Shown here piece by piece: positions 2,696 to 56,588 of a stretch of 64,000 nt of DNA (its first letter is position 1; each line of letters begins with the position of its first letter). The notes beneath the pieces were generated by a model. The model saw nothing but the letters and a program-made list of their open reading frames with translations. It was not told where the DNA came from and ran no database searches. Source of the stretch: Frankiaceae bacterium (GTDB lineage: Bacteria > Actinomycetota > Actinomycetes > BP-191); NCBI GenBank assembly GCA_035940575.1, contig DASZER010000011.1, forward strand, positions 315 to 64,314, read 5' to 3'. Position numbers and translations under genes: made by a program.

Positions 2696-3303
2696 GCCGC
2701 GCCTGGCCCGCGACCCTGCGCGACGGCGAGGTCGAGCTGCGGCCGTACCGGATGCGCGACGCGGCGGCGTTCAGCGAGGTCAGGCTGTCGAACGAGGCGT
2801 GGCTGCGGCCGTGGGAGCCGACCGCGTCGGGGACGTGGGAGGACCGCTTCGCGGTGACGTCGTTCCCGCCGATGCTACGGGCGCTGCGCAGGCAGGCGCG
2901 GCAGGGGACGACGTACGCGTTCGCGGTCACCTACCGCGGCAGGTTCGTCGGCGGCACGACGGTCGGCAACATCTGGCGCGCGAGCCTCGGCTCCTGCTTC
3001 CTCGGCTACTGGGTCGACGGCCGCCACGCCGGACGCGGCATCGTGCCGACGGCGGTCGCGCTCGCGACCGACCACTGCTTCGGCCCGCTCGGGCTGCACC
3101 GCGTCGAGGCGAACGTGCGCCCCGAGAACGCCGCGAGCCGCCGCGTGATGGAGAAGCTCGGGTTCCGCGAGGAGGGGCTGCGCGAGCGCTACCTCTACAT
3201 CGACGGCGCGTGGCGCGACCACGTGTCGTACGCGCTCACGGTCGAGGACGTGCCGGGCGGATTGCTGCGCCGGTGGCACGCGGTCCGCGACAGATCGACA
3301 TAA
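2692..3303 (+). CDS. rimJ: RimJ/RimL-family GNAT N-acetyltransferase
   Basis: LGYWVD, GRGI, LHRVEANVRPENAASRRVMEKLGFREEG and IDGAWRDH motifs. Confidence 0.85.
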   Translation: MSRAWPATLRDGEVELRPYRMRDAAAFSEVRLSNEAWLRPWEPTASGTWEDRFAVTSFPPMLRALRRQARQGTTYAFAVTYRGRFVGGTTVGNIWRASLGSCFLGYWVDGRHAGRGIVPTAVALATDHCFGPLGLHRVEANVRPENAASRRVMEKLGFREEGLRERYLYIDGAWRDHVSYALTVEDVPGGLLRRWHAVRDRST

Positions 3304-5437: not shown

Positions 5438-6123
5438 AGCGACGTCGGCGCCTCGATCGTGAACCGCGCCTCGACCGACGCCCGCACGACCTGGTGCACG
5501 GGCTCCAGGTCCAGCGACACCGGCTCGGGCGCGACCGACTCCCTGCGCATCGGCGAGGGCGCGGCCATCGCGGCGACCGCATAGGGCGGGCCGCCGCCGT
5601 ACGACGTCACGGCCTCCGTCAGCAGCCCGGTGTCGGCGAGCTCGACCAGGCCGGTGAGCCGCGAGCCGAGCGCGCCCGCGTACTCCGACGCCCGCGTCAC
5701 CGCGTCGCGCGCCGCCGCGACCCGCGCCGAGCGGTAGACGGCCGAGTCGCGGCGCAGCGCCCAGCGCGGGCCGTACACGTCGACCATCTCCTGCTCGGCG
5801 AGGCGCGACACGAGGTCGCCGAGGCGCGTGAAGTCCACGACCTCGACGGTGTGCCGCACGTACCCGTGGTAGCCGACGACCCGCTCGCGCGGCTTGCCGT
5901 CCTTGAGCTCGGGGGAGATCCGAACGGCCGCCGTCTCGACCCGCTCGACCGCGTCGCCGAACGACGCCACGAGCGCGAGCACCGCGGACGAGCGGCGGTC
6001 GAGCGAGGCCAGCGTGCGCTCGCGGTCCTTGTCCTGCGCGGCGACCGACACCTCGACCGTCGCTACCTCGGGCTCGACCTCGAGGACGGTCTCGCCGCGC
6101 ACGGACACGAGTGGCGCCTCCAC
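5434..6123 (-). CDS. SIMPL (DUF541) domain protein
   Basis: C-terminal part of ORF 5434..7845, from GTG at 6123. VSVRGETVLEVEPEVATVEVSV, AARDAVTRASEYAGALG and VRASVEARF patterns. Confidence 0.8.
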   Translation of the reverse strand: MEAPLVSVRGETVLEVEPEVATVEVSVAAQDKDRERTLASLDRRSSAVLALVASFGDAVERVETAAVRISPELKDGKPRERVVGYHGYVRHTVEVVDFTRLGDLVSRLAEQEMVDVYGPRWALRRDSAVYRSARVAAARDAVTRASEYAGALGSRLTGLVELADTGLLTEAVTSYGGGPPYAVAAMAAPSPMRRESVAPEPVSLDLEPVHQVVRASVEARFTIEAPTSL

Positions 6124-6137
6124 GGGCGCAGCATGAC

Positions 6138-7697
6138 CTAGATCCAGCTCGAGAACCACATGCGGCTGTGCCACGTCTCGTACGGCACGATCTCCGCCGC
6201 GAGGATCGGGTACAGGTAGTAGAAGTTCAGGATCACCAGCAGCGCGTACGCGCCCACGCCCGCGGCGCCGATCTGGCGGCGTTGCGGCGAGTCGCCGGGG
6301 CGGCCGAGCGCGAGGCCCGCGCAGTACGCCAGCGCGAGGCACATGAACGGCACGGCCGGCAGCGCGTAGAACAGGAACTCCGTGCGGTCCGACGGCCAGA
6401 ACCACGGGACGTACCCGGCCGCGAACGCCACGAGGATGAACGACGCGCGCCAGTCGCGCCGCGAGATCCAGCCCCACACGCAGCCGCCGAGCGCGATCAC
6501 CGAGCCCCACCAGATCGCGGGCGTGCCGATGCCGAGGACGGCCTGCGCGGTCCCCTCGCGCGGCGTCTCGTAGAAGTACGCGACGGGCCGCGCGAGGAAC
6601 AGCCAGCCGTACGGCTTCGACTCGTACGCGTGCGACGAGTCGAGGTGCACGTGGAAGTCGTAGACCTGCTGGTGGTACGCCAGCCAGCCCTTGATCGGGC
6701 CGCAGCCGTCGCCCCAGCTCGGGTTGCCGCACGAACGCCGCCAGCCCCCGTCGGTCACGAACCAGCCGCTCCACGTGCCGACGTACGTCACCACGGGGAC
6801 GACCGTCGCGACGAACACGAACGCCGTCCACGCGTCGCGCCGCAGCGCCGCGCGGAACGGCCGCGGGATGCCCGCCGCCCTGCGCGCGCCGACGTCCCAC
6901 GCGAACGCCACCAGCGCGAGCGCGGGCACGTAGTAGACCGCGCTCCACTTCACGCCGATCGCGGCGCCGAGCATGACGCCCGTCGCGACGCGCCAGGGTC
7001 TGAGCCCGAGCGAGGGACCCGGGAACGACAGGTCCTCGCCGAGGCGTTCGGAGAGCCGCCTCCGGCCCCAGTCCCTGTCGGCGACGAGGCACGCTGCGGC
7101 GGCCACGACGAAGAACATCAGGAAGACGTCGAGCATCGCCATCCGGCTCTGCACGAAGTGCAGCCCGTCGAGGGCGAGCAGCATCCCCGCGAAGCAGCCG
7201 AGCAGCGTCGAGCGGAACAGCCGCCGCCCCATCCGCGCGACGACGAGGATCGACAGCGCGCCGAACACGCACGCCGCGATCCGCCAGCCGAACGCCGCGC
7301 GCGAGCCGCCGTTGGGGTCGTAGCCGAAGATCAGCTCGCCGATGCCGATGAGCCACTTGCCGAGCGGCGGGTGGACGACGTACGCCGGCTCGCCGACCTT
7401 GTCGATGATGCAGACGTTGTCGGGGCGGTGGGCGTGCTCGTAGCCGAAGCGCACGAGCGTCTGCGCGTCGCACGAGTAGTAGACCTCGTCGAACGCCGTC
7501 TTGGCCGGGGTCGCCAGCCGGTAGAACCGCAGCGCGAAGCCGAACAGCGTCACCGCGATCGGGCCGAGCCAGCCGAGCAGCGCGTTGCCGGGGATCGGGC
7601 GCCACAACGGCCGCTCGGGCCGGTGCCCGCGGCGCGGCCGCCGCGCGGGCGCCTCCACCGGCTCCCAGACGTCGGGTGCCACTCCGGTCGTCGCCAT
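6138..7697 (-). CDS. pmt: Protein O-mannosyltransferase (PMT family)
   Basis: FDEVYY, VHPPLGKWLI, FGWR, SRMAMLD, VKWS and HAYESKP motifs; multi-TM; divergent from rsmI. Confidence 0.9.
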   Translation of the reverse strand: MATTGVAPDVWEPVEAPARRPRRGHRPERPLWRPIPGNALLGWLGPIAVTLFGFALRFYRLATPAKTAFDEVYYSCDAQTLVRFGYEHAHRPDNVCIIDKVGEPAYVVHPPLGKWLIGIGELIFGYDPNGGSRAAFGWRIAACVFGALSILVVARMGRRLFRSTLLGCFAGMLLALDGLHFVQSRMAMLDVFLMFFVVAAAACLVADRDWGRRRLSERLGEDLSFPGPSLGLRPWRVATGVMLGAAIGVKWSAVYYVPALALVAFAWDVGARRAAGIPRPFRAALRRDAWTAFVFVATVVPVVTYVGTWSGWFVTDGGWRRSCGNPSWGDGCGPIKGWLAYHQQVYDFHVHLDSSHAYESKPYGWLFLARPVAYFYETPREGTAQAVLGIGTPAIWWGSVIALGGCVWGWISRRDWRASFILVAFAAGYVPWFWPSDRTEFLFYALPAVPFMCLALAYCAGLALGRPGDSPQRRQIGAAGVGAYALLVILNFYYLYPILAAEIVPYETWHSRMWFSSWI

Positions 7698-51530: not shown

Positions 51531-52379
51531 ATGAACCGCACCACCGTCCTCGGCGCCGCCGTCGCGGCGCTGCTCCTCACCATCGCCCCGGCGGGCGCCG
51601 AGACCGAGTACCGCGTCGGCCCCGACCCGACCGCCACCGCCATCGAGAAGAACGGCCCCTTCGCCTACGCCTCCACGACCGTCGCCGACGCGGCCACGCC
51701 CGGCTTCGGCGCCGCGACGATCTACTACCCGACCGACACGACGCTGCCGCCGCTCGGCGGCGTCGCGATCTCGCCCGGCTACACCGAGACGCAGTCGGCG
51801 ATCTCGTGGTTCGGGCCGCGGCTCGCCTCGCACGGCTTCGTCGTCATCACGTTCAACACGAACTCGCCGTACGACCAGCCCGCCGCCCGCGGCGACCAGC
51901 TCCTCGCCGCGCTCGACTACCTGACCGGCAGCAGCGCCGTACGCACCCGCGTCGACGCCTCGCGGCTGGCCGTCATGGGCCACTCGATGGGCGGCGGCGG
52001 CTCGCTGGAGGCGACGAAGAAGCGCCCGTCGCTGCAGGCGTCGATCCCGATGGCGCCGTGGCACACCGACAAGACCTGGCCCGAGCCGGCCACGCCGACG
52101 CTGATCGTCGGCGCCGAGAACGACAGCATCGCCCCGGTCGCGAGCCACGCCGAGCCGTTCTACGAGAGCCTCACCAGCGCGGTCGAGAAGGCGTACGTCG
52201 AGCTCAACAACGCCAGCCACAGCGTCACCAACACCGCCAACGCCACGACCTCCCGCCTCGCCGTCGCGTGGCTCAAGCGGTTCGTGGACAACGACACCCG
52301 CTACGACCAGTTCCTCTGCCCGCCCCCGGCGCCGAGCAGCGCGATCCAGGAGTACCGGGACACCTGCCCGCACGCGTAG
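51531..52379 (+). CDS. Secreted cutinase / PET-hydrolase-like alpha/beta hydrolase
   Basis: Signal peptide; GPDPT, IYYP, PGYT, LASHGFVV, GHSMGGGG, ENDSIAP, NASH, RFVDNDTRY and a C-terminal Cys pair. Confidence 0.92.
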   Translation: MNRTTVLGAAVAALLLTIAPAGAETEYRVGPDPTATAIEKNGPFAYASTTVADAATPGFGAATIYYPTDTTLPPLGGVAISPGYTETQSAISWFGPRLASHGFVVITFNTNSPYDQPAARGDQLLAALDYLTGSSAVRTRVDASRLAVMGHSMGGGGSLEATKKRPSLQASIPMAPWHTDKTWPEPATPTLIVGAENDSIAPVASHAEPFYESLTSAVEKAYVELNNASHSVTNTANATTSRLAVAWLKRFVDNDTRYDQFLCPPPAPSSAIQEYRDTCPHA

Positions 52380-52926: not shown

Positions 52927-53141
52927 CACGACGCCGTCGCCGCGGCGCCTCCCCGGGATTCGGCCCTGGGAACGGCAGCCGGTCGGACGGCGACGGCACA
53001 CGGAGCAACAGGTCCGGAGCGCCGGCGCTCCCCGCCGGGCGGCGGCACGGCCCGCCGGTGGGCGCGGCGCCCCGGACGTCCCGCCAGGGTTTCCGCCCCC
53101 GGCGGGGAACACGTACGGACCACCCCGACGAAGGCCAGGAG

Positions 53142-54119
53142 ATGGACGAGCACGAGACGGCGTACCGCACACCGTTCCGCTCGTGGGACACGCGTGGCTG
53201 GGTGCGCTCGAAGCCGCACCAGCCGACGGAGTTCGCGGACGGGCGGGCGTTCTTCACGCCCGAGGTCGTGCCGCTGCTCGCGCTGCCCGCGGCTGCGGCC
53301 CTGTCGCGCGACGCCGTCGACGACCTCTGCGCGCGCCACCTCCAGTGGCACCTGGCCATGACCGTCGACCTCGAGCTCGGCCCCGTCAACGACGCCGTGC
53401 ACGTCGTCCGCGACTCCGGCGACGTCTTCCCGCGCGACCTGCGCACCGACGCGCTGCGCCTCTACACCGACGAGGCCGGGCACGCCGAGATGTGCGCCAC
53501 GATGGCCGACGCCGTCGAGCGCGCGACCGGCGTCGCGCCGCCCGCCGGCCCGCCGCCGTTCGTGCGCGCGGTGCGCGACGCGGCCGCCGCCGCCGAGCCC
53601 GGCGCCCGCGACGCCGTTCGCCTGCTCGCGGCGTTCGTCTCCGAGACGCTCATCTCGGCGACGCTGACGCGGGTGCCGTTCGACGAGCGCGTGCACGTCG
53701 GCGTACGCCAGCTCGTCGCCGACCACGCCGAGGACGAGCGCCGCCACGCGGTGCTGTTCCGCGACGTGTTCGCGCGCTACTGGCCGTCGCTCGACGCCGC
53801 CGTACGCCGGGCCGTCGGGCTGCTCCTGCCCGACCTGATCACGACGTTCCTCGCGCCCGACGACGCCGAGCTCGCCGTCGCCGCCGCCGCCCACGCCGAC
53901 GTGCTCGGCGACCCCGTCGTCGCGGCGGGCGAGGCGGCGCTGCGGGCGACCGCGAACGGCGCGTTCCTCGCCGCCGCCGAGCCGACGCTGCGCGTGCTGC
54001 ACGAGCACGGCGCGTTCGACGACCCGGATGTCGCGGCGGCGTTCGTCGACTCCGGGCTCTTCCCCGACATCGGGTCCGCCGCGCTGCGCCGGCCGAGCGA
54101 GGCGTTGGCGCCGCGCTGA
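53142..54119 (+). CDS. AurF/CmlI-family ferritin-like diiron oxygenase
   Basis: RBS AGGAG; W...WVRSKP N-terminus, LELGPVN, YTDEAGH, FVSETLIS and DHAEDERRH diiron ligand motifs. Confidence 0.8.
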   Translation: MDEHETAYRTPFRSWDTRGWVRSKPHQPTEFADGRAFFTPEVVPLLALPAAAALSRDAVDDLCARHLQWHLAMTVDLELGPVNDAVHVVRDSGDVFPRDLRTDALRLYTDEAGHAEMCATMADAVERATGVAPPAGPPPFVRAVRDAAAAAEPGARDAVRLLAAFVSETLISATLTRVPFDERVHVGVRQLVADHAEDERRHAVLFRDVFARYWPSLDAAVRRAVGLLLPDLITTFLAPDDAELAVAAAAHADVLGDPVVAAGEAALRATANGAFLAAAEPTLRVLHEHGAFDDPDVAAAFVDSGLFPDIGSAALRRPSEALAPR

Positions 54120-54375: not shown

Positions 54376-54420
54376 GCGCGGGGAGCGGCGGATCGGCCCG
54401 CCGCGCTTCGGCCCCCGCGC
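54376..54420. terminator. Hairpin between convergent genes
   Basis: GCGCGGGG...CCCCGCGC outer stem with an internal GCGGCGG/CCGCCGC stem. Confidence 0.5.
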
Positions 54421-56102
54421 TACCGGGCGGTCGCCACCGACGGCGGCAGCTCGCGGGCGCTCGACGGCAGCGCCACGTCGAGCGCGTACAGCGCGTTGCG
54501 CACCGCCCGTCCCGCCGCCCGCGCCAGGCCCGGGTCGAGGACCCCTCGCCTGGCGCAGTCCAGCGCCGCGCGCGCGATCCTGTCCGCGTGGCCCGCGACG
54601 TCGGCGGCGTCGTAGCGGCCCGCCGCCCGCGCGAACACGTACGGCAGCGCGTTCAGCGCCAGCGCCAGGTCGAGCACCGCCCGCCGCGCCGCCTTGCCCT
54701 CCGGCTCCCGCGCCGACGCGGGCGGGTCGTCCGCGAGCCGCAGCACCGCGAGCAGCCGCGCGAGGCGCGGCGTCGTCTCCGTCCACACGAGGTCGTTGTC
54801 GTAGGTGATCGTGTCCTCGCGCCGCTTCGCGAGGATGAACACCTTCATCAGCGCGACCGCGAGCCGTTCGGCCGTCTCGACGTGGTACGGCTGCGCCTCC
54901 CACTCCGCGACGAACCGGTCGCGGAACCCGTCGAGCAGCGCGTCGGCCGAGACCTCGTTGCCGGTGCGCGAGCGGATCTTGCCGTCGGGGCTGCGGATCA
55001 TGCCGTACCAGATGCCGTCGGTCCCGTCCGCGACGGGCGCGTGACCGAGGCGGCGGAGGATCTCCAGGAACTGGGTGAACGACTCCCGCCACTGCTCGCC
55101 CGTGATCCGCACGACGCGCCCCTTCGGGTGGAGCTGCGCGCGGCGGACCCAGATCGCGACGAAGAACACCAGGGACAACGGCGTCCCGTCGCGCCGCAGC
55201 AACGTCACCTCGCCGAGCCCCACGTCGGAGAGGTCCATGTACACGGAGCCGTCGGGGCGGCGCAGCGCGGTGCCGTTCTCGACGGCCCTGTCGAGCAGCT
55301 CCATCGCGCACGGCAGCGCCTCGAGCTCGCGCAGCACGAAGTCGTGGCGCATCCCGACCCGCAGGTACGTCTCGCGGATGCCCTCGATCGCCCACTCGGT
55401 CACGCGCTCGTTGAGCGCGACCGCGTCGGGGTCGCCCGCCCACTGCCGCCGCAACAGCTCGGCCGCCTCGGCGTCGAGCTCGGTCACCTCGTCGTCGTAG
55501 GCCGCGATCGCCATGCGCTCGGTGTGGAAGCGCGTGTACCAGCGGCCCACCCAGTGGTCCTTCTTCGTGTCCGGCTCGGCGCCCTCGCCCCAGCGCAGGT
55601 ACGCGACGAGCGCCTGGCAGACGTGGATGCCGAAGTTCGCGAGCTCCTCGGTCGTCGTGATCTCCCAGCCCTGCGTCTCGTGGAGGCGCGACGCGGACTT
55701 GCCGAGGAAGACGTTGCGCAGGTGGCCCACGTGCAGCGGCTTGTTCGCGTTGGGGCAGCCGATCGAGAACACCATCGGCTCGCCGAGCGGCGGCTGCCAG
55801 CCGTAGCGGTCGCCGCTCGCCGCGACCGCTTCCGTGACGGCGCGGACGACGAGGCCGTCGGCGGGGCGGACGTAGACGCGCGGCGGGATCGGCAGCGCCG
55901 CCTCGATGCCCTCGACGTCGGCGAGGGTCTTGGCGAGCGTTCGGGCGGCGTCCTTGGGGTTGCCCTCGGGGTCGGCCTCCCGCGCGTCGACGCGGAACTC
56001 CGCGGGCGCGTTCGGTGCCGCCCGCTCGACCTCGAGGCGCAGGCCGGTGGCCCGCTCGATCAGCGCGGAGAGGGCGCGTTCGGCCGGTCCCGCGACCGCC
56101 AC
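54420..56102 (-). CDS. Divergent arginyl-tRNA synthetase-like protein (class I aaRS paralogue)
   Basis: CPNANKPLHVGHLRNVFLG (HIGH), LLRRDGT, YGMI...KIRSRTGN (KMSKS-like) and a DALR-like helical C-terminus; RBS GAGGGAGAGG. Confidence 0.8.
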   Translation of the reverse strand: MAVAGPAERALSALIERATGLRLEVERAAPNAPAEFRVDAREADPEGNPKDAARTLAKTLADVEGIEAALPIPPRVYVRPADGLVVRAVTEAVAASGDRYGWQPPLGEPMVFSIGCPNANKPLHVGHLRNVFLGKSASRLHETQGWEITTTEELANFGIHVCQALVAYLRWGEGAEPDTKKDHWVGRWYTRFHTERMAIAAYDDEVTELDAEAAELLRRQWAGDPDAVALNERVTEWAIEGIRETYLRVGMRHDFVLRELEALPCAMELLDRAVENGTALRRPDGSVYMDLSDVGLGEVTLLRRDGTPLSLVFFVAIWVRRAQLHPKGRVVRITGEQWRESFTQFLEILRRLGHAPVADGTDGIWYGMIRSPDGKIRSRTGNEVSADALLDGFRDRFVAEWEAQPYHVETAERLAVALMKVFILAKRREDTITYDNDLVWTETTPRLARLLAVLRLADDPPASAREPEGKAARRAVLDLALALNALPYVFARAAGRYDAADVAGHADRIARAALDCARRGVLDPGLARAAGRAVRNALYALDVALPSSARELPPSVATAR

Positions 56103-56133
56103 CGCGCCTCTCCCTCTCGTGCCGTGCCTGTCG

Positions 56134-56402
56134 TGCGCCCGACGGGGCTCGAACCCGCAACCTTCGGTTTACAAGACCGATGCTCTTGAGACGGGACGTG
56201 CGATCCGCCCTCGCGCCGCGGGGTCCCACCGACGCCTTCGGCTAGCGCGGTGGAGGGCCGCACGAGGGTCTGCAGCTCCTCGTGAGGAGAGGTGCGCCGC
56301 CGCTAGCAGACGACGTTCTCTCCGGACGACCTGTGGGTGGTTCGTGCGACGGGTCGAGCGGGCCGGGTGTCCCCTCTCTTTCACCGATTGAGCTACGAGC
56401 GC
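56134..56402 (-). tRNA. tRNA with anticodon TGT (Thr reading), D-loop interrupted by a 196-nt structured insertion (56187-56382)
   Basis: The 5' piece GCGCTCG-TA-GCTC-AATCGGT (56402-56383) and the 3' piece A-GAGC-A-TCGGT-CTTGTAA-ACCGA-AGGTT-GCGGG-TTCGAGC-CCCGT-CGGGCGC-A (56186-56134) join into a canonical 73-nt cloverleaf. Confidence 0.85.
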
Positions 56403-56588
56403 AGGGATGCGACGCCCGAATCGGGGCCGCCGGGGGATGGTGGCGGCGCGACGGTGGCGGCGTCAAGGGCGCGCGATGTTCCGGACGGCCCAGGCAGGAA
56501 CCGCCGGATGGGTGACGAATCACCCGCCGTTCGCAGGCACGCGCGTCGCTGCGGGGGCAGGACCGCATGACGAAGGAAGGGACACCCC

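What the first reader, a model, noticed from the sequence alone, without database searches (positions are those of the whole stretch)
56134..56402. tRNA(TGT) with a 196-nt highly structured insertion in its D-loop
Seen in sequence: on the minus strand, a 20-nt 5' half (acceptor, D-stem and AATCGGT) and a 53-nt 3' half rejoin into an intact cloverleaf. It keeps U8, A14, G18G19, the TTCGA loop and fully paired stems, so it does not look decayed. The insert sits right after U20 and folds as a nested rod: GAGAGGGGAC/GTCCCGTCTC closing stem, then CCGCTCG/CGAGGGCGG, CGTCGC/GCGGCG, CCCAC/GTGGG, GCTAGCG/CGCTAGC, CGCAC/GTGCG and a CTCCT-CACG-AGGAG tip. Established knowledge: bacterial tRNA introns are typically group I, mostly in the anticodon loop. 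Here I see no convincing group I P7 pairing or usable terminal G, no group II GUGYG/domain V, no bulge-helix-bulge and no target-site duplication. Inference: this is either a 269-nt tRNA with an extra D-arm domain or an unrecognised intron class. Standard tRNA finders may miss it.
Basis: partly seen in the sequence, partly recalled or inferred. Interest (0 to 1): 0.92.

Follow-up and report, generated by a model that had tools for sequence, protein, structure and literature searches.

The report
tRNA carrying a large D-loop domain
A soil actinobacterium encodes an otherwise perfect transfer RNA with a conserved, folded 196-base RNA domain grafted into its D-loop, always next to a remodelled arginyl-tRNA-synthetase-like enzyme, which looks like a private RNA-enzyme pair of a kind not described before.

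Summary
Window 56134-56402 (-) is a tRNA(UGU) body split between nucleotides 20 and 21 by a 196-nt insert. ARAGORN misses it intact and calls tRNA-Thr once the insert is removed. It is single-copy and is the only long-D-loop hit in the 3.2-Mb assembly.

The whole unit recurs in four other species of one genus. Mean pairwise identity is about 98% in the exons, 72% in the insert and 31-42% in the flanks, and the stems covary.

A divergent ArgRS-like gene follows it in all five genomes, and both are missing from the same other genomes. The enzyme keeps the ArgRS fold and HIGH motif, but four columns invariant in canonical ArgRS (recalled as arginine-binding) are replaced. The insert sits at D-loop position 20, the nucleotide ArgRS uses for identity.

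Two sister tRNAs in the genus carry unrelated inserts (165 and 173 nt) at the same site, with anticodons GAC and AGA.

Contigs from RNA libraries hold the insert-containing form at depths of 100 and 4532. No spliced joint was listed. Rfam finds no group I or II intron or other family.

Best reading (about 0.45): the domain is retained and marks a dedicated tRNA-like partner of the ligase. Main rival (about 0.28): a new kind of intervening sequence.

The parts
56134..56402 (-). Whole 269-nt tRNA-like gene (type 1, anticodon UGU)
   Evidence: Sequence read. Full-length homologues at 75-89% identity in G003-G006, plus metagenome contig L115.
56383..56402 (-). 5' part, nucleotides 1-20: acceptor 5' strand, U8 A9, D-stem 5' strand, A14 A15 U16 C17 G18 G19 U20
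   Evidence: Mean pairwise identity 98.3% among 6 sequences.
56187..56382 (-). 196-nt inserted domain between U20 and A21
   Evidence: Single copy in the genome. Mean pairwise identity 71.7%, against 42% upstream and 31% downstream; length stays within 187-196 nt. No Rfam family at E<=10.
56369..56378 (-). 5' strand of the closing stem of the insert (GAG..GGGAC)
   Evidence: Pairs with 56188-56197. 8 pairs, 97.9% of cells paired, 2 pairs changed on both sides (helix 3).
56188..56197 (-). 3' strand of the closing stem (GTCCC..CTC)
   Evidence: helix 3.
56225..56331 (-). Branched core of the insert: helix GGTCG/CGGCC enclosing two hairpin arms, followed by a third hairpin with loop AGCCGAA. Holds the most conserved blocks.
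   Evidence: Consensus fold. Pair counts, helices 6-10 (88-100% of cells paired; compensatory changes in helices 7, 9 and 10). Invariant blocks.
56134..56186 (-). 3' part: A21, D-stem 3' strand, anticodon arm, variable loop AGGTT, T-arm (TTCGAGC loop), acceptor 3' strand, discriminator A73. No CCA is encoded.
   Evidence: Mean pairwise identity 98.7%. One G-C to C-G compensatory change in the anticodon stem of G004.
56171..56173 (-). Anticodon TGT
   Evidence: The loop CTTGTAA is invariant in 6 of 6 sequences.
56103..56133 (-). 31-nt spacer with a purine-rich Shine-Dalgarno-like stretch before the GTG start of the ligase gene. No terminator was found here.
   Evidence: Sequence. The scan found no terminator-like site between the two genes. 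One RNA-library contig runs across it (X6 record 19).
54420..56102 (-). ArgRS-like class I ligase paralogue (560 aa, P0001)
   Evidence: Only PF00750 matches. TIGR00456 scores 108 bits against a cut-off of 261.65. AF2 model pLDDT 93.2; best fold match is ArgRS-tRNAArg 1f7u_A, TMq 0.80. Four columns invariant in canonical ArgRS are replaced. Lies 30-50 nt downstream of the tRNA in all 5 genomes.
53091..54119 (+). AurF-like di-iron oxygenase gene, convergent with the ligase gene. A conserved neighbour, not shown to belong to the system.
   Evidence: PF11583, E = 1.6e-20. Present next to the paralogue in all four other genomes, but the wider synteny is conserved as well.

Best explanation
The gene makes a roughly 269-nt chimeric tRNA. 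It is a complete L-shaped tRNA body that keeps a branched 196-nt RNA domain, growing out of the D-loop between nucleotides 20 and 21.

It is transcribed together with, and works with, the ArgRS-like ligase encoded 31 nt downstream. That enzyme keeps the ArgRS architecture and the ATP and acceptor-end motifs, but has replaced the residues that hold arginine. It therefore probably loads something other than arginine onto the 3' end of this RNA.

The extra domain sits where ArgRS-type enzymes read their identity nucleotide (position 20 or 20a, in the variable pocket). I infer two roles for it: a private recognition handle for the paralogue, and a block that keeps the RNA out of ordinary translation. 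The anticodon would then be read by the enzyme's C-terminal helical domain, not by a codon.

Shown here: the gene's anatomy, its conservation and covariation, its linkage to the paralogue, the replaced active-site columns in the enzyme, and the presence of insert-containing sequence in RNA libraries. Inferred: that the domain stays in the mature RNA, that the paralogue binds and charges it, and what the product is used for.
For: (1) The tRNA body is intact and under strong constraint. All 21 cloverleaf pairs are standard, and U8, A14, G18 G19, A21 and the TTCGA loop are present. The exons are 98-99% identical across species whose paralogue proteins are only 69-88% identical.

(2) The insert is constrained as a structure. 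Its identity is 72%, against 31-42% in the flanks. 93.7% of cells pair, against 41-51% when the partners are slid, and 11 pairs are changed on both sides.

(3) Linkage. The paralogue lies directly downstream in 5 of 5 genomes. Among 61 relatives, the full-length RNA and the paralogue occur in the same 5 genomes and in no other. Among 401 genomes of the class, the paralogue occurs in 5.

(4) A second pair exists in G006: a sister tRNA with a 165-nt insert at the same site, 2.4 kb upstream of a second paralogue that is 38% identical.

(5) The insertion site is the ArgRS identity position. A review states that A20 in the variable pocket is the main bacterial arginine determinant, unique among tRNA families, and that D20/C20a are read in the yeast complex (PMC9976931, passages seen). 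The model of the paralogue aligns over 582 columns with the 606-residue ArgRS of 1f7u, and its first 100 residues are modelled confidently as an alpha/beta domain.

(6) The enzyme is remodelled, not decayed. HIGH (H124, H127) and S378-R379-G381 are kept in 33 of 33 paralogues. The columns that are E/D, Y, D/E and Q in 20-21 of 21 canonical ArgRS are S, S/A, F and W in the 25 close paralogues.

(7) RNA libraries.
- In X16, a 320-nt contig at depth 100 spans the whole unit with the insert, while the flanks are at depth 0-2.
- In X6, a 548-nt contig at depth 4532 covers most of the insert, the 3' part and the start of the ligase gene.
- In X19, a 239-nt contig covers 56140-56378.
- No joint that skips the insert was listed.

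(8) The three inserts (196, 165 and 173 nt) share no sequence, but each is closed by a long stem. That fits lineage-specific handles better than a shared ribozyme core.

(9) A viral-contig tRNA of the same body type carries only a 22-nt hairpin at this site. That is too small to be a self-splicing intron.
Against: - All RNA evidence comes from assembled contigs of relatives, not raw reads. Contigs drop rare forms, standard libraries capture mature tRNAs poorly, and 31 further pieces were not shown. A spliced 73-nt form cannot be excluded.
- The perfect rejoining of the halves, and the intact, invariant anticodon loops with three different anticodons (UGU, GAC, AGA), are what one would expect of tRNAs that decode after the insert is removed.
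- Type 3 in G001 has no paralogue on its 9.5-kb contig or elsewhere in that assembly, which is 73% complete.
- Distant paralogues (L024, L025) have no tRNA-like gene within 3 kb.
- No binding or charging was tested.
- The roles of the replaced residues are recalled from the yeast ArgRS literature, not taken from a call.
- Only 6 distinct sequences support the covariation.
Confidence: 0.45

Rival explanations
1. The insert is an intervening sequence of a new kind. It would be removed after transcription by self-splicing, by a host nuclease plus ligase, or by RNase III-type excision that leaves a two-piece tRNA. The result is a normal-size tRNA. The ArgRS-like enzyme would charge it with a non-cognate residue for conditional mistranslation, as in the tRNAProX/ProRSx pairs of Streptomyces.
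For: - The two halves rejoin into a flawless cloverleaf that ARAGORN calls tRNA-Thr.
- The closing stem brings positions 20 and 21 within a few nucleotides of each other.
- The anticodon loops are intact and differ between the three types (UGU, GAC, AGA) on one body type. That recalls the dual-identity tRNAs encoded next to a ProRS isoform (PMC10404621, abstract seen).
- The 5' part ends in U, and the invariant GCCGA in the insert could pair with UCGGU20 with a terminal U-G. This is read from the sequence and is only a 5-nt match.
- An RtcB ligase gene is present in the genome.
- Engineered tRNA-aptamer fusions usually lose translational activity (PMC7590224, introduction passage seen), so decoding would require removal of the insert.
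Against: - No group I, group II or small-ribozyme family matches at E<=10, and none matches for types 2 and 3.
- The last insert nucleotide is A in 5 of 6 sequences, not the terminal G of group I introns.
- The three inserts share no sequence, so there is no common catalytic core.
- No archaeal-type splicing endonuclease was found, though the assembly is only 80% complete.
- RNA-library contigs hold the unspliced form at depths of 100 and 4532, and no joint across the insert was listed.
- The genome has a separate ordinary tRNA-Thr(UGU).
Confidence: 0.28
2. The tRNA-like element is a cis-acting leader of the ligase mRNA. It would be a tRNA mimic that the enzyme binds to control its own synthesis, in the manner of the ThrRS operator or a T-box, and not a free RNA.
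For: It lies 31 nt upstream of the ligase start in the same orientation, with no terminator found between them. One RNA-library contig at depth 4532 runs from the insert through the 3' part into the first ~280 nt of the ligase gene.
Against: - In X16 the contig is about the size of the tRNA unit. It ends 2 nt beyond the tRNA 5' end, and the flanks are at depth 0-2.
- Type 3 stands alone, with an encoded CCA and its own terminator-like hairpin.
- Type 2 lies 2.4 kb and two genes away from its paralogue.
- Full conservation of the acceptor stem, the discriminator and the elbow nucleotides is more than an operator would need.
Confidence: 0.1
3. It is a dead tRNA gene disrupted by a selfish or random insertion, or an assembly artefact.
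For: tRNA finders do not call it. The genome has another tRNA-Thr(UGU), so this copy is dispensable for decoding.
Against: - The insert is single-copy.
- The same architecture occurs in 5 separately assembled genomes plus metagenome contig L115, which is new. L116 is 99.98% identical to the G003 contig and so is not independent.
- The exons are 98-99% identical while the flanks are 31-42%.
- Compensatory changes occur in the insert and in the anticodon stem.
- It is present in RNA libraries at depths far above the flanks.
Confidence: 0.03

Closest known systems
tRNAProX / ProRSx pairs of Streptomyces and Kitasatospora (PMC10404621; abstract seen)
   Same: Both occur in Actinobacteria. In both, an extra tRNA whose body and anticodon do not match in the usual way is encoded next to a distinct isoform of one aminoacyl-tRNA synthetase.
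   Different: Those tRNAs are of normal size and are shown to decode. Here the tRNA carries a 165-196-nt domain in its D-loop. The enzyme is ArgRS-like, not ProRS-like, and has replaced the columns recalled as amino-acid-binding. No decoding is shown.
Canonical ArgRS with tRNAArg (PDB 1f7u, 5b63; identity rules in PMC9976931)
   Same: The overall fold is the same (TMq 0.80). The HIGH motif and the S-R-x-G motif are kept. The discriminator is A73. The feature that distinguishes the RNA lies at D-loop position 20/20a, which is what ArgRS reads.
   Different: TIGR00456 scores 108 bits against a cut-off of 261.65. The Pfam models for the N-terminal and DALR domains do not match. The columns equivalent to yeast E148, Y347, D351 and Q375 are S, S/A, F and W. 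Position 35 of the anticodon is G or A, not the C35 determinant.
Bacterial group I introns in tRNA genes (cyanobacterial tRNALeu, Azoarcus tRNAIle; recalled)
   Same: A structured insert of about 200 nt sits inside a bacterial tRNA gene whose halves rejoin perfectly. The 5' part ends in U.
   Different: Those introns lie in the anticodon loop, match Rfam Intron_gpI and end in G. This insert lies in the D-loop, matches nothing and ends in A in 5 of 6 sequences.
tmRNA, viral tRNA-like structures and bacterial YrlA RNAs (recalled; TLS passage seen in PMC9976931)
   Same: All combine a tRNA-like module with a large extra RNA domain. The review notes that large stem-loops inserted in the core of some valine TLSs do not prevent valylation.
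   Different: In those RNAs the extra part replaces or reshapes the anticodon arm, or builds the acceptor by a pseudoknot. Here all four arms are canonical and the domain is added at the elbow side of the D-loop.
Intervening sequences of bacterial 23S rRNA removed by RNase III (recalled)
   Same: An extended helical insert closed by a long stem sits inside a conserved structural RNA.
   Different: Those sequences are excised without religation and evolve freely. This insert has invariant loop blocks, and RNA-library contigs contain it uncut.

Membership tests
Canonical tRNA (Rfam RF00005) | Cloverleaf with 7/4/5/5-bp stems and a 7-nt anticodon loop | tested here: met
   21 of 21 pairs are standard in G000. 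These helices are 100% paired in 6 of 6 sequences (helices 1, 2, 11, 12).
Canonical tRNA (Rfam RF00005) | Conserved tertiary nucleotides: U8, A14, G18 G19, A21, T-loop TTCRA, 15:48 pair | tested here: met
   Read directly from the sequence. These positions are invariant in all 6 sequences.
Canonical tRNA (Rfam RF00005) | Length about 70-95 nt, with a D-loop of a few to about 11 nt | tested here: not met
   The gene is 269 nt and the D-loop is 204 nt. ARAGORN finds nothing. The review of non-canonical tRNAs cites D-loops of 4-11 nt in the passages seen (PMC7609411).
Canonical tRNA (Rfam RF00005) | Score above the gathering threshold over the true gene | tested here: inconclusive
   30.2 bits against a threshold of 29, but on 56134-56203 only, using insert sequence as a false 5' half.
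Canonical tRNA (Rfam RF00005) | Aminoacylated and used by the ribosome | not testable with these tools
   Needs acid-gel or tRNA-seq charging assays and reporter decoding.
Group I intron | Match to the conserved core (Rfam Intron_gpI) | tested here: not met
   No match at E<=10 with permissive filters on 56050-56500.
Group I intron | Terminal G at the 3' end of the intron | tested here: not met
   The nucleotide before A21 is A in 5 of 6 sequences and G only in G003.
Group I intron | U-G pair at the 5' splice site within P1, formed with a nearby guide sequence | tested here: inconclusive
   The 5' part ends in U20 and the invariant GCCGA could pair with UCGGU. However, it lies about 140 nt inside the insert, and 5 nt can match by chance.
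Group II intron | Domain V and the 5' GUGYG motif; Rfam group II models | tested here: not met
   No Rfam match. The insert starts with GAAA.
Archaeal/eukaryal protein-spliced tRNA intron | Splicing endonuclease (PF01974) encoded in the genome | tested here: not met
   0 matches in G000, which is 80% complete. The control search hit 4 archaeal genomes.
Archaeal/eukaryal protein-spliced tRNA intron | Bulge-helix-bulge motif at the exon-intron borders | not tested
   No formal BHB search was run. By eye, the borders lie in single-stranded linkers (GAAA on the 5' side, A on the 3' side) next to the closing stem.
MITE / REP-type repeat | Many copies in the genome | tested here: not met
   The only match in G000 is the insert itself.
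Arginine--tRNA ligase (TIGR00456) | Score above the curated cut-off | tested here: not met
   108.1 bits against 261.65. The genome's true ArgRS on contig C43 scores 408.1.
Arginine--tRNA ligase (TIGR00456) | Three-domain ArgRS fold | tested here: met
   AF2 model pLDDT 93.2. Foldseek's best match is 1f7u_A with TMq 0.80, and the 16 best matches are all ArgRS. By sequence, only PF00750 matches.
Arginine--tRNA ligase (TIGR00456) | HIGH signature and the S/T-R-x-G motif | tested here: met
   H124, H127, S378 and R379 are invariant in 33 of 33 paralogues; G381 is kept in 32 of 33.
Arginine--tRNA ligase (TIGR00456) | Arginine-binding residues (yeast E148, Y347, D351, Q375; roles recalled) | tested here: not met
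   These columns are E/D in 21 of 21, Y in 21 of 21, D/E in 21 of 21 and Q in 20 of 21 canonical ArgRS. In the close paralogues they are S (25/25), S/A (25/25), F (24/25) and W (25/25).
Dedicated tRNA / synthetase-paralogue pair (tRNAProX/ProRSx type) | An unusual tRNA gene encoded next to a distinct synthetase isoform, the two inherited together | tested here: met
   They are adjacent in 5 of 5 genomes. Among 61 relatives, the same 5 genomes hold both. A second pair exists in G006.
Dedicated tRNA / synthetase-paralogue pair (tRNAProX/ProRSx type) | The paralogue charges that tRNA, and the tRNA decodes a non-cognate codon | not testable with these tools
   Needs aminoacylation and reporter assays.

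The most novel reading that the evidence does not exclude
This is a new class of chimeric tRNA. A full L-shaped tRNA permanently carries a large folded RNA domain on the variable pocket of its D-loop. The domain has co-evolved with a re-purposed ArgRS-type ligase that has given up arginine. Together they form a natural orthogonal RNA-enzyme pair, which carries an unknown acyl group for a use outside normal decoding. The domain serves both as the identity tag and as the barrier to the ribosome. Sister members with other anticodons and other domains show that the design is modular.
Probability: 0.38. Interest if true: 0.95.

Novelty: new variant of a known kind. Interest (0 to 1): 0.84.

Why it matters
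No tRNA that I could find in print keeps a domain of more than 100 nt in its D-loop. [quoted passage not shown]

If the domain is retained, this is a natural example of what synthetic biologists try to build: an aptamer-tagged tRNA read by its own synthetase. It would also show how a synthetase paralogue escapes cross-talk with the housekeeping pair, by moving the identity signal into a new RNA domain.

If the domain is removed, it is a bacterial tRNA intervening sequence at a new site, with none of the known splicing signatures.

Either way the gene is invisible to tRNA finders. Similar genes are probably missing from annotations; two more turned up in the same genus and one in a viral contig. 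The pair is small (about 2 kb) and directly testable by expression in a laboratory host.

Tried and rejected
- Minimum-energy folding of the single sequence gave z = -1.34 and is uninformative on its own. RNAalifold on the whole unit misfolded the tRNA part, so I folded the insert alone and imposed the cloverleaf.
- The search for related loci on genome contigs picked the HIGH-motif peptide as its pattern. It returned mostly ordinary ArgRS of Spirochaetota and Bacteroidota; only L024 and L025 were useful.
- L024 and L025 have no tRNA-like gene within 3 kb.
- The single metagenome scan, with a 29-nt 3'-half pattern, gave only two loci. One of them (L116) is 99.98% identical to G003's contig and so is not independent.
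- No covariance model was built. At 269 positions the calibration would have exceeded the allowed time, so no model search for distant members was possible.
- The syntenic locus in G002, which lacks both genes, could not be used as a clean empty site, because synteny breaks after the GSDH gene.
- In one search my 'AurF' query was cut out of frame. I redid it correctly.
- PADLOC gave no match for either paralogue or for the two genes between the second pair.
- The CCA count used a loose test. I take from it only that many ordinary tRNAs of G000 also lack an encoded CCA.
The contigs behind proteins P0002-P0025 could therefore not be fetched, which limits the covariation set to 6 sequences. Supplementary files of papers were not consulted.
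- Genomes G022, G038 and G050 are unpublished. They enter only as genomes without the full-length RNA or the paralogue in the tallies. L013 (from G038) was read only to see that its match is an ordinary tRNA. No positive claim rests on them.
Full report
WHAT IS THERE

Read on the minus strand, window 56402-56134 is a tRNA gene interrupted once.
- Nucleotides 1-20 (GCGCTCG TA GCTC AATCGGT) give the acceptor 5' strand, U8 A9, the D-stem 5' strand and the D-loop up to G18 G19 U20.
- A 196-nt insert follows (56382-56187).
- The last 53 nt start with A21 and give the D-stem 3' strand, a 5-bp anticodon stem with loop CTTGTAA (anticodon UGU), variable loop AGGTT, a T-arm with loop TTCGAGC, the acceptor 3' strand and discriminator A.

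All 21 cloverleaf pairs are standard. ARAGORN finds nothing there, with or without its intron mode. Once a script removes the insert, it calls tRNA-Thr(tgt) for most boundary choices. Rfam's tRNA model reaches 30.2 bits, just above its threshold of 29. It does so only by using insert sequence as a false 5' half, and no other Rfam family matches 56050-56500 at E<=10.

NOT CHANCE, NOT A REPEAT, NOT AN ARTEFACT

The insert matches only itself in the 3.2-Mb, 80%-complete assembly. I wrote a strict scan for tRNA halves separated by up to 450 nt. It found 23 loci on both strands, 22 with ordinary D-loops, and this one. The genome has a separate, quite different tRNA-Thr(UGU) on contig C8, so this copy is supernumerary.

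CONSERVATION

Among 61 related genomes, 27 had some match. Full-length matches (positions 1-269, 75-89% identity) occur only in G000 and four other species of the same genus: G003, G004, G005 and G006. A metagenome scan added one new variant, L115, and a near-duplicate of G003, L116, which is 99.98% identical.

Across the six distinct sequences, mean pairwise identity is as follows:
- 5' part: 98.3%
- 3' part: 98.7%
- insert: 71.7%
- the 100 nt upstream: 42%
- the 30-nt spacer downstream: 31%

Insert length stays within 187-196 nt. The only change in the 3' part is a G-C to C-G swap in the anticodon stem of G004.

FOLD OF THE INSERT

RNAalifold on the insert alone gives a closing stem and two further helices, leading to a branched core. 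In the core, helix GGTCG/CGGCC encloses two hairpin arms and is followed by a hairpin with loop AGCCGAA.

With the cloverleaf added, 93.7% of 477 cells pair and 11 of 80 pairs have changes on both sides. No shuffle out of 500 reaches these values, and slid controls pair only 41-51%.

Its inner helices are weaker (70.8%, 88% and 79% paired) and show no compensatory change. With six related sequences these counts are suggestive, not proof.

THE NEIGHBOUR

A 560-aa gene starts 31 nt downstream, after a purine-rich stretch (54420-56102, minus strand).
- It matches only the ArgRS catalytic Pfam domain.
- It scores 108 bits on TIGR00456 against a cut-off of 261.65.
- It is 22% identical to the genome's real ArgRS on contig C43, which scores 408 bits and has all three Pfam domains.

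An AlphaFold model built from 33 paralogues is confident (pLDDT 93.2, pTM 0.91). Its best structural matches are all ArgRS, headed by the yeast ArgRS-tRNAArg complex 1f7u_A (TMq 0.80, 582 columns). The N-terminal alpha/beta domain and the C-terminal helical domain therefore persist as folds.

I aligned 33 paralogues with 21 canonical ArgRS. The HIGH histidines and the S-R-x-G motif are kept throughout. Four columns differ sharply. They align with yeast E148, Y347, D351 and Q375 (alignment), whose role in holding arginine I recall from the yeast structure papers. In canonical enzymes they are E/D (21/21), Y (21/21), D/E (21/21) and Q (20/21). In the 25 close paralogues they are S (25/25), S or A (25/25), F (24/25) and W (25/25). 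The enzyme looks active but no longer built for arginine.

LINKAGE

The paralogue lies 30-50 nt downstream of the RNA in all four other genomes. Among the same 61 genomes it occurs in exactly the five that hold the full-length RNA. It is missing from G002 (100% complete) and G001 (73% complete). It occurs in 5 of 401 genomes sampled from the class.

Wider synteny is also conserved in the genus, including a convergent AurF-like gene. Neighbours beyond the pair therefore prove nothing.

In the protein database, 32 proteins carry only the catalytic Pfam domain. About 25 are 57-100% identical, from MAGs labelled Mycobacteriales or Frankiaceae, and 7 are 31-36% identical.

SISTER MEMBERS

G006 has a second paralogue, 38% identical. 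About 2.4 kb upstream of it lies a second interrupted tRNA with the same body. It has a 165-nt insert after GGT20 and the anticodon GAC. One of the two genes in between resembles CgnE/B or M29-type proteins; this is an Atlas lead only.

G001 has a third interrupted tRNA, with a 173-nt insert at the same site, anticodon AGA, an encoded CCA and a terminator-like hairpin. No paralogue was found on its 9.5-kb contig or elsewhere in that incomplete assembly.

The three inserts share no sequence, but each is closed by a long stem. None matches Rfam. The T-arm and acceptor signature of this body occurs in the family only in this genus: 8 places in 6 of 17 genomes.

In viral contigs the signature occurs 21 times. 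Eleven of these ARAGORN does not call. One is a 96-nt tRNA-like gene with a 22-nt hairpin at the same D-loop site.

WHY THE SITE MATTERS

The insert expands the stretch between G19 and A21. [quoted passage not shown] The new domain therefore sits where an ArgRS-type enzyme looks first.

The usual C35 determinant is absent (position 35 is G or A). This fits an enzyme whose anticodon-binding domain has diverged.

RNA EVIDENCE

One search found the probable source run plus 23 runs holding 6-9% of the sampled words. I laid the contigs of three RNA or RNA-like runs and one DNA run at 80% likeness.
- X16, a soil metatranscriptome: a 320-nt contig at depth 100 spans the whole unit. The two conserved ends align, and the middle is diverged but of the same length. 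It stops 2 nt beyond the tRNA 5' end. At its other end it carries adapter sequence about 34 nt past the 3' end. Flanking bins are at depth 0-2.
- X6, an ice metatranscriptome: a 548-nt contig at depth 4532 covers most of the insert, the 3' part, the spacer and about 280 nt of the ligase gene.
- X19, whose RNA status is a guess: a 239-nt contig covers 56140-56378.

The only joint listed is the diverged middle in X16; none skips the insert. Contigs that stop at 56186 continue into D-arms and acceptor stems of other sequence, and differ from the window at 3-9 positions in 42-56 nt. They are other organisms' ordinary tRNAs, not the spliced form.

There are limits. These are contigs of relatives. 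Ends and depth are weak evidence, rare forms are dropped, and 31 pieces were not shown.

READING

The retained-domain reading best joins the facts:
- a tRNA body under full constraint
- a structured and conserved but lineage-specific domain at the ArgRS identity site
- strict co-inheritance with a remodelled ArgRS-type ligase
- insert-containing RNA in three libraries

I put it at about 0.45.

The intervening-sequence reading (about 0.28) explains the perfect rejoining and the intact, differing anticodons. It would make the system a relative of the tRNAProX/ProRSx mistranslation pairs (PMC10404621, abstract seen). Against it:
- no known splicing signature
- no terminal G
- no archaeal-type endonuclease
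- no shared core among the three inserts
- no support from the RNA contigs

A cis-acting leader (about 0.10) fits the X6 contig, but not the stand-alone type 3 or the distant type 2. A dead gene or an artefact is contradicted by conservation, covariation and expression.

What the enzyme attaches is unknown. One distant paralogue (L025) sits between a lysine/ornithine N-hydroxylase, an aminotransferase and a MetRS-like gene. That hints at small-molecule biosynthesis for that branch.

COMPARISON AND NOVELTY

Seven full-text searches found no description of a bacterial tRNA with a D-loop domain or of this ArgRS-like family. A review of non-canonical natural tRNAs discusses D-loops of 4-11 nt in the passages I saw (PMC7609411). 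Engineered tRNA-aptamer fusions are reported to lose translational activity in most cases (PMC7590224, introduction passage).

I file the finding as a new variant of a known kind: a dedicated tRNA and synthetase-paralogue pair. The bolder reading, a new class of chimeric tRNA, stays open.

Noticed in passing
L114 (G006:C145) 2866-3103 and 5494-7221: A second interrupted tRNA (165-nt D-loop insert, anticodon GAC) lies 2.4 kb upstream of a second ArgRS-like paralogue. Between them are two genes with no Pfam match, one of which looks like CgnE/B or M29 aminopeptidase by Atlas. An integrase fragment lies just after the paralogue.
   Followed up: partly
L007 (G001:C109) about 1311-1555: A third interrupted tRNA: a 173-nt D-loop insert, anticodon AGA on a short-variable-loop body, an encoded CCA and a terminator-like hairpin. 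No ArgRS-like gene was found in that 73%-complete genome.
   Followed up: partly
L129 (G001:C59) about 5640-5715: A normal-size tRNA(TGT) with the same acceptor and T-arm signature as the interrupted tRNAs and a lower-GC anticodon arm. It may be an insert-less relative of their body.
   Followed up: no
L151 (viral contig), minus strand, about 1776-1871: A 96-nt tRNA-like gene (anticodon TTC) of the same body type, with a 22-nt hairpin inserted in the D-loop. ARAGORN does not call it. No ArgRS-like gene lies in the 9-kb locus.
   Followed up: partly
L160, L150/L158/L166, L147/L156/L165 (viral contigs): Further matches to the T-arm and acceptor signature that ARAGORN does not call. They include a 64-nt mini tRNA-like element (L160) and three contigs that share one 3' half preceded by AT-rich sequence.
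   Followed up: no
L025 126-6633: A distant ArgRS-like paralogue (36% identical) sits in a row with a lysine/ornithine N-monooxygenase, a class-III aminotransferase and a MetRS-like gene. The arrangement looks like a small-molecule biosynthesis cluster that uses synthetase-like enzymes.
   Followed up: no
window 51531-52379 (+): A gene with a strong match to the PET-hydrolase-like family (PF12740, 365.6 bits).
   Followed up: no
window 55825-56361 as laid in run X6: A relative's contig covering the insert, the 3' part and the start of the ligase gene has depth 4532 in an ice metatranscriptome. That is far above anything else laid, and the reason is not explained.
   Followed up: no
G000 whole genome: ARAGORN lists several oddly long or odd-anticodon tRNAs in this 74%-GC genome (Arg gcg of 81-94 nt, Ser act, SeC tca, two with four-base anticodons). 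They are probably false calls. No tRNA-Thr(GGU), Tyr or Cys was found in the 80%-complete assembly.
   Followed up: no
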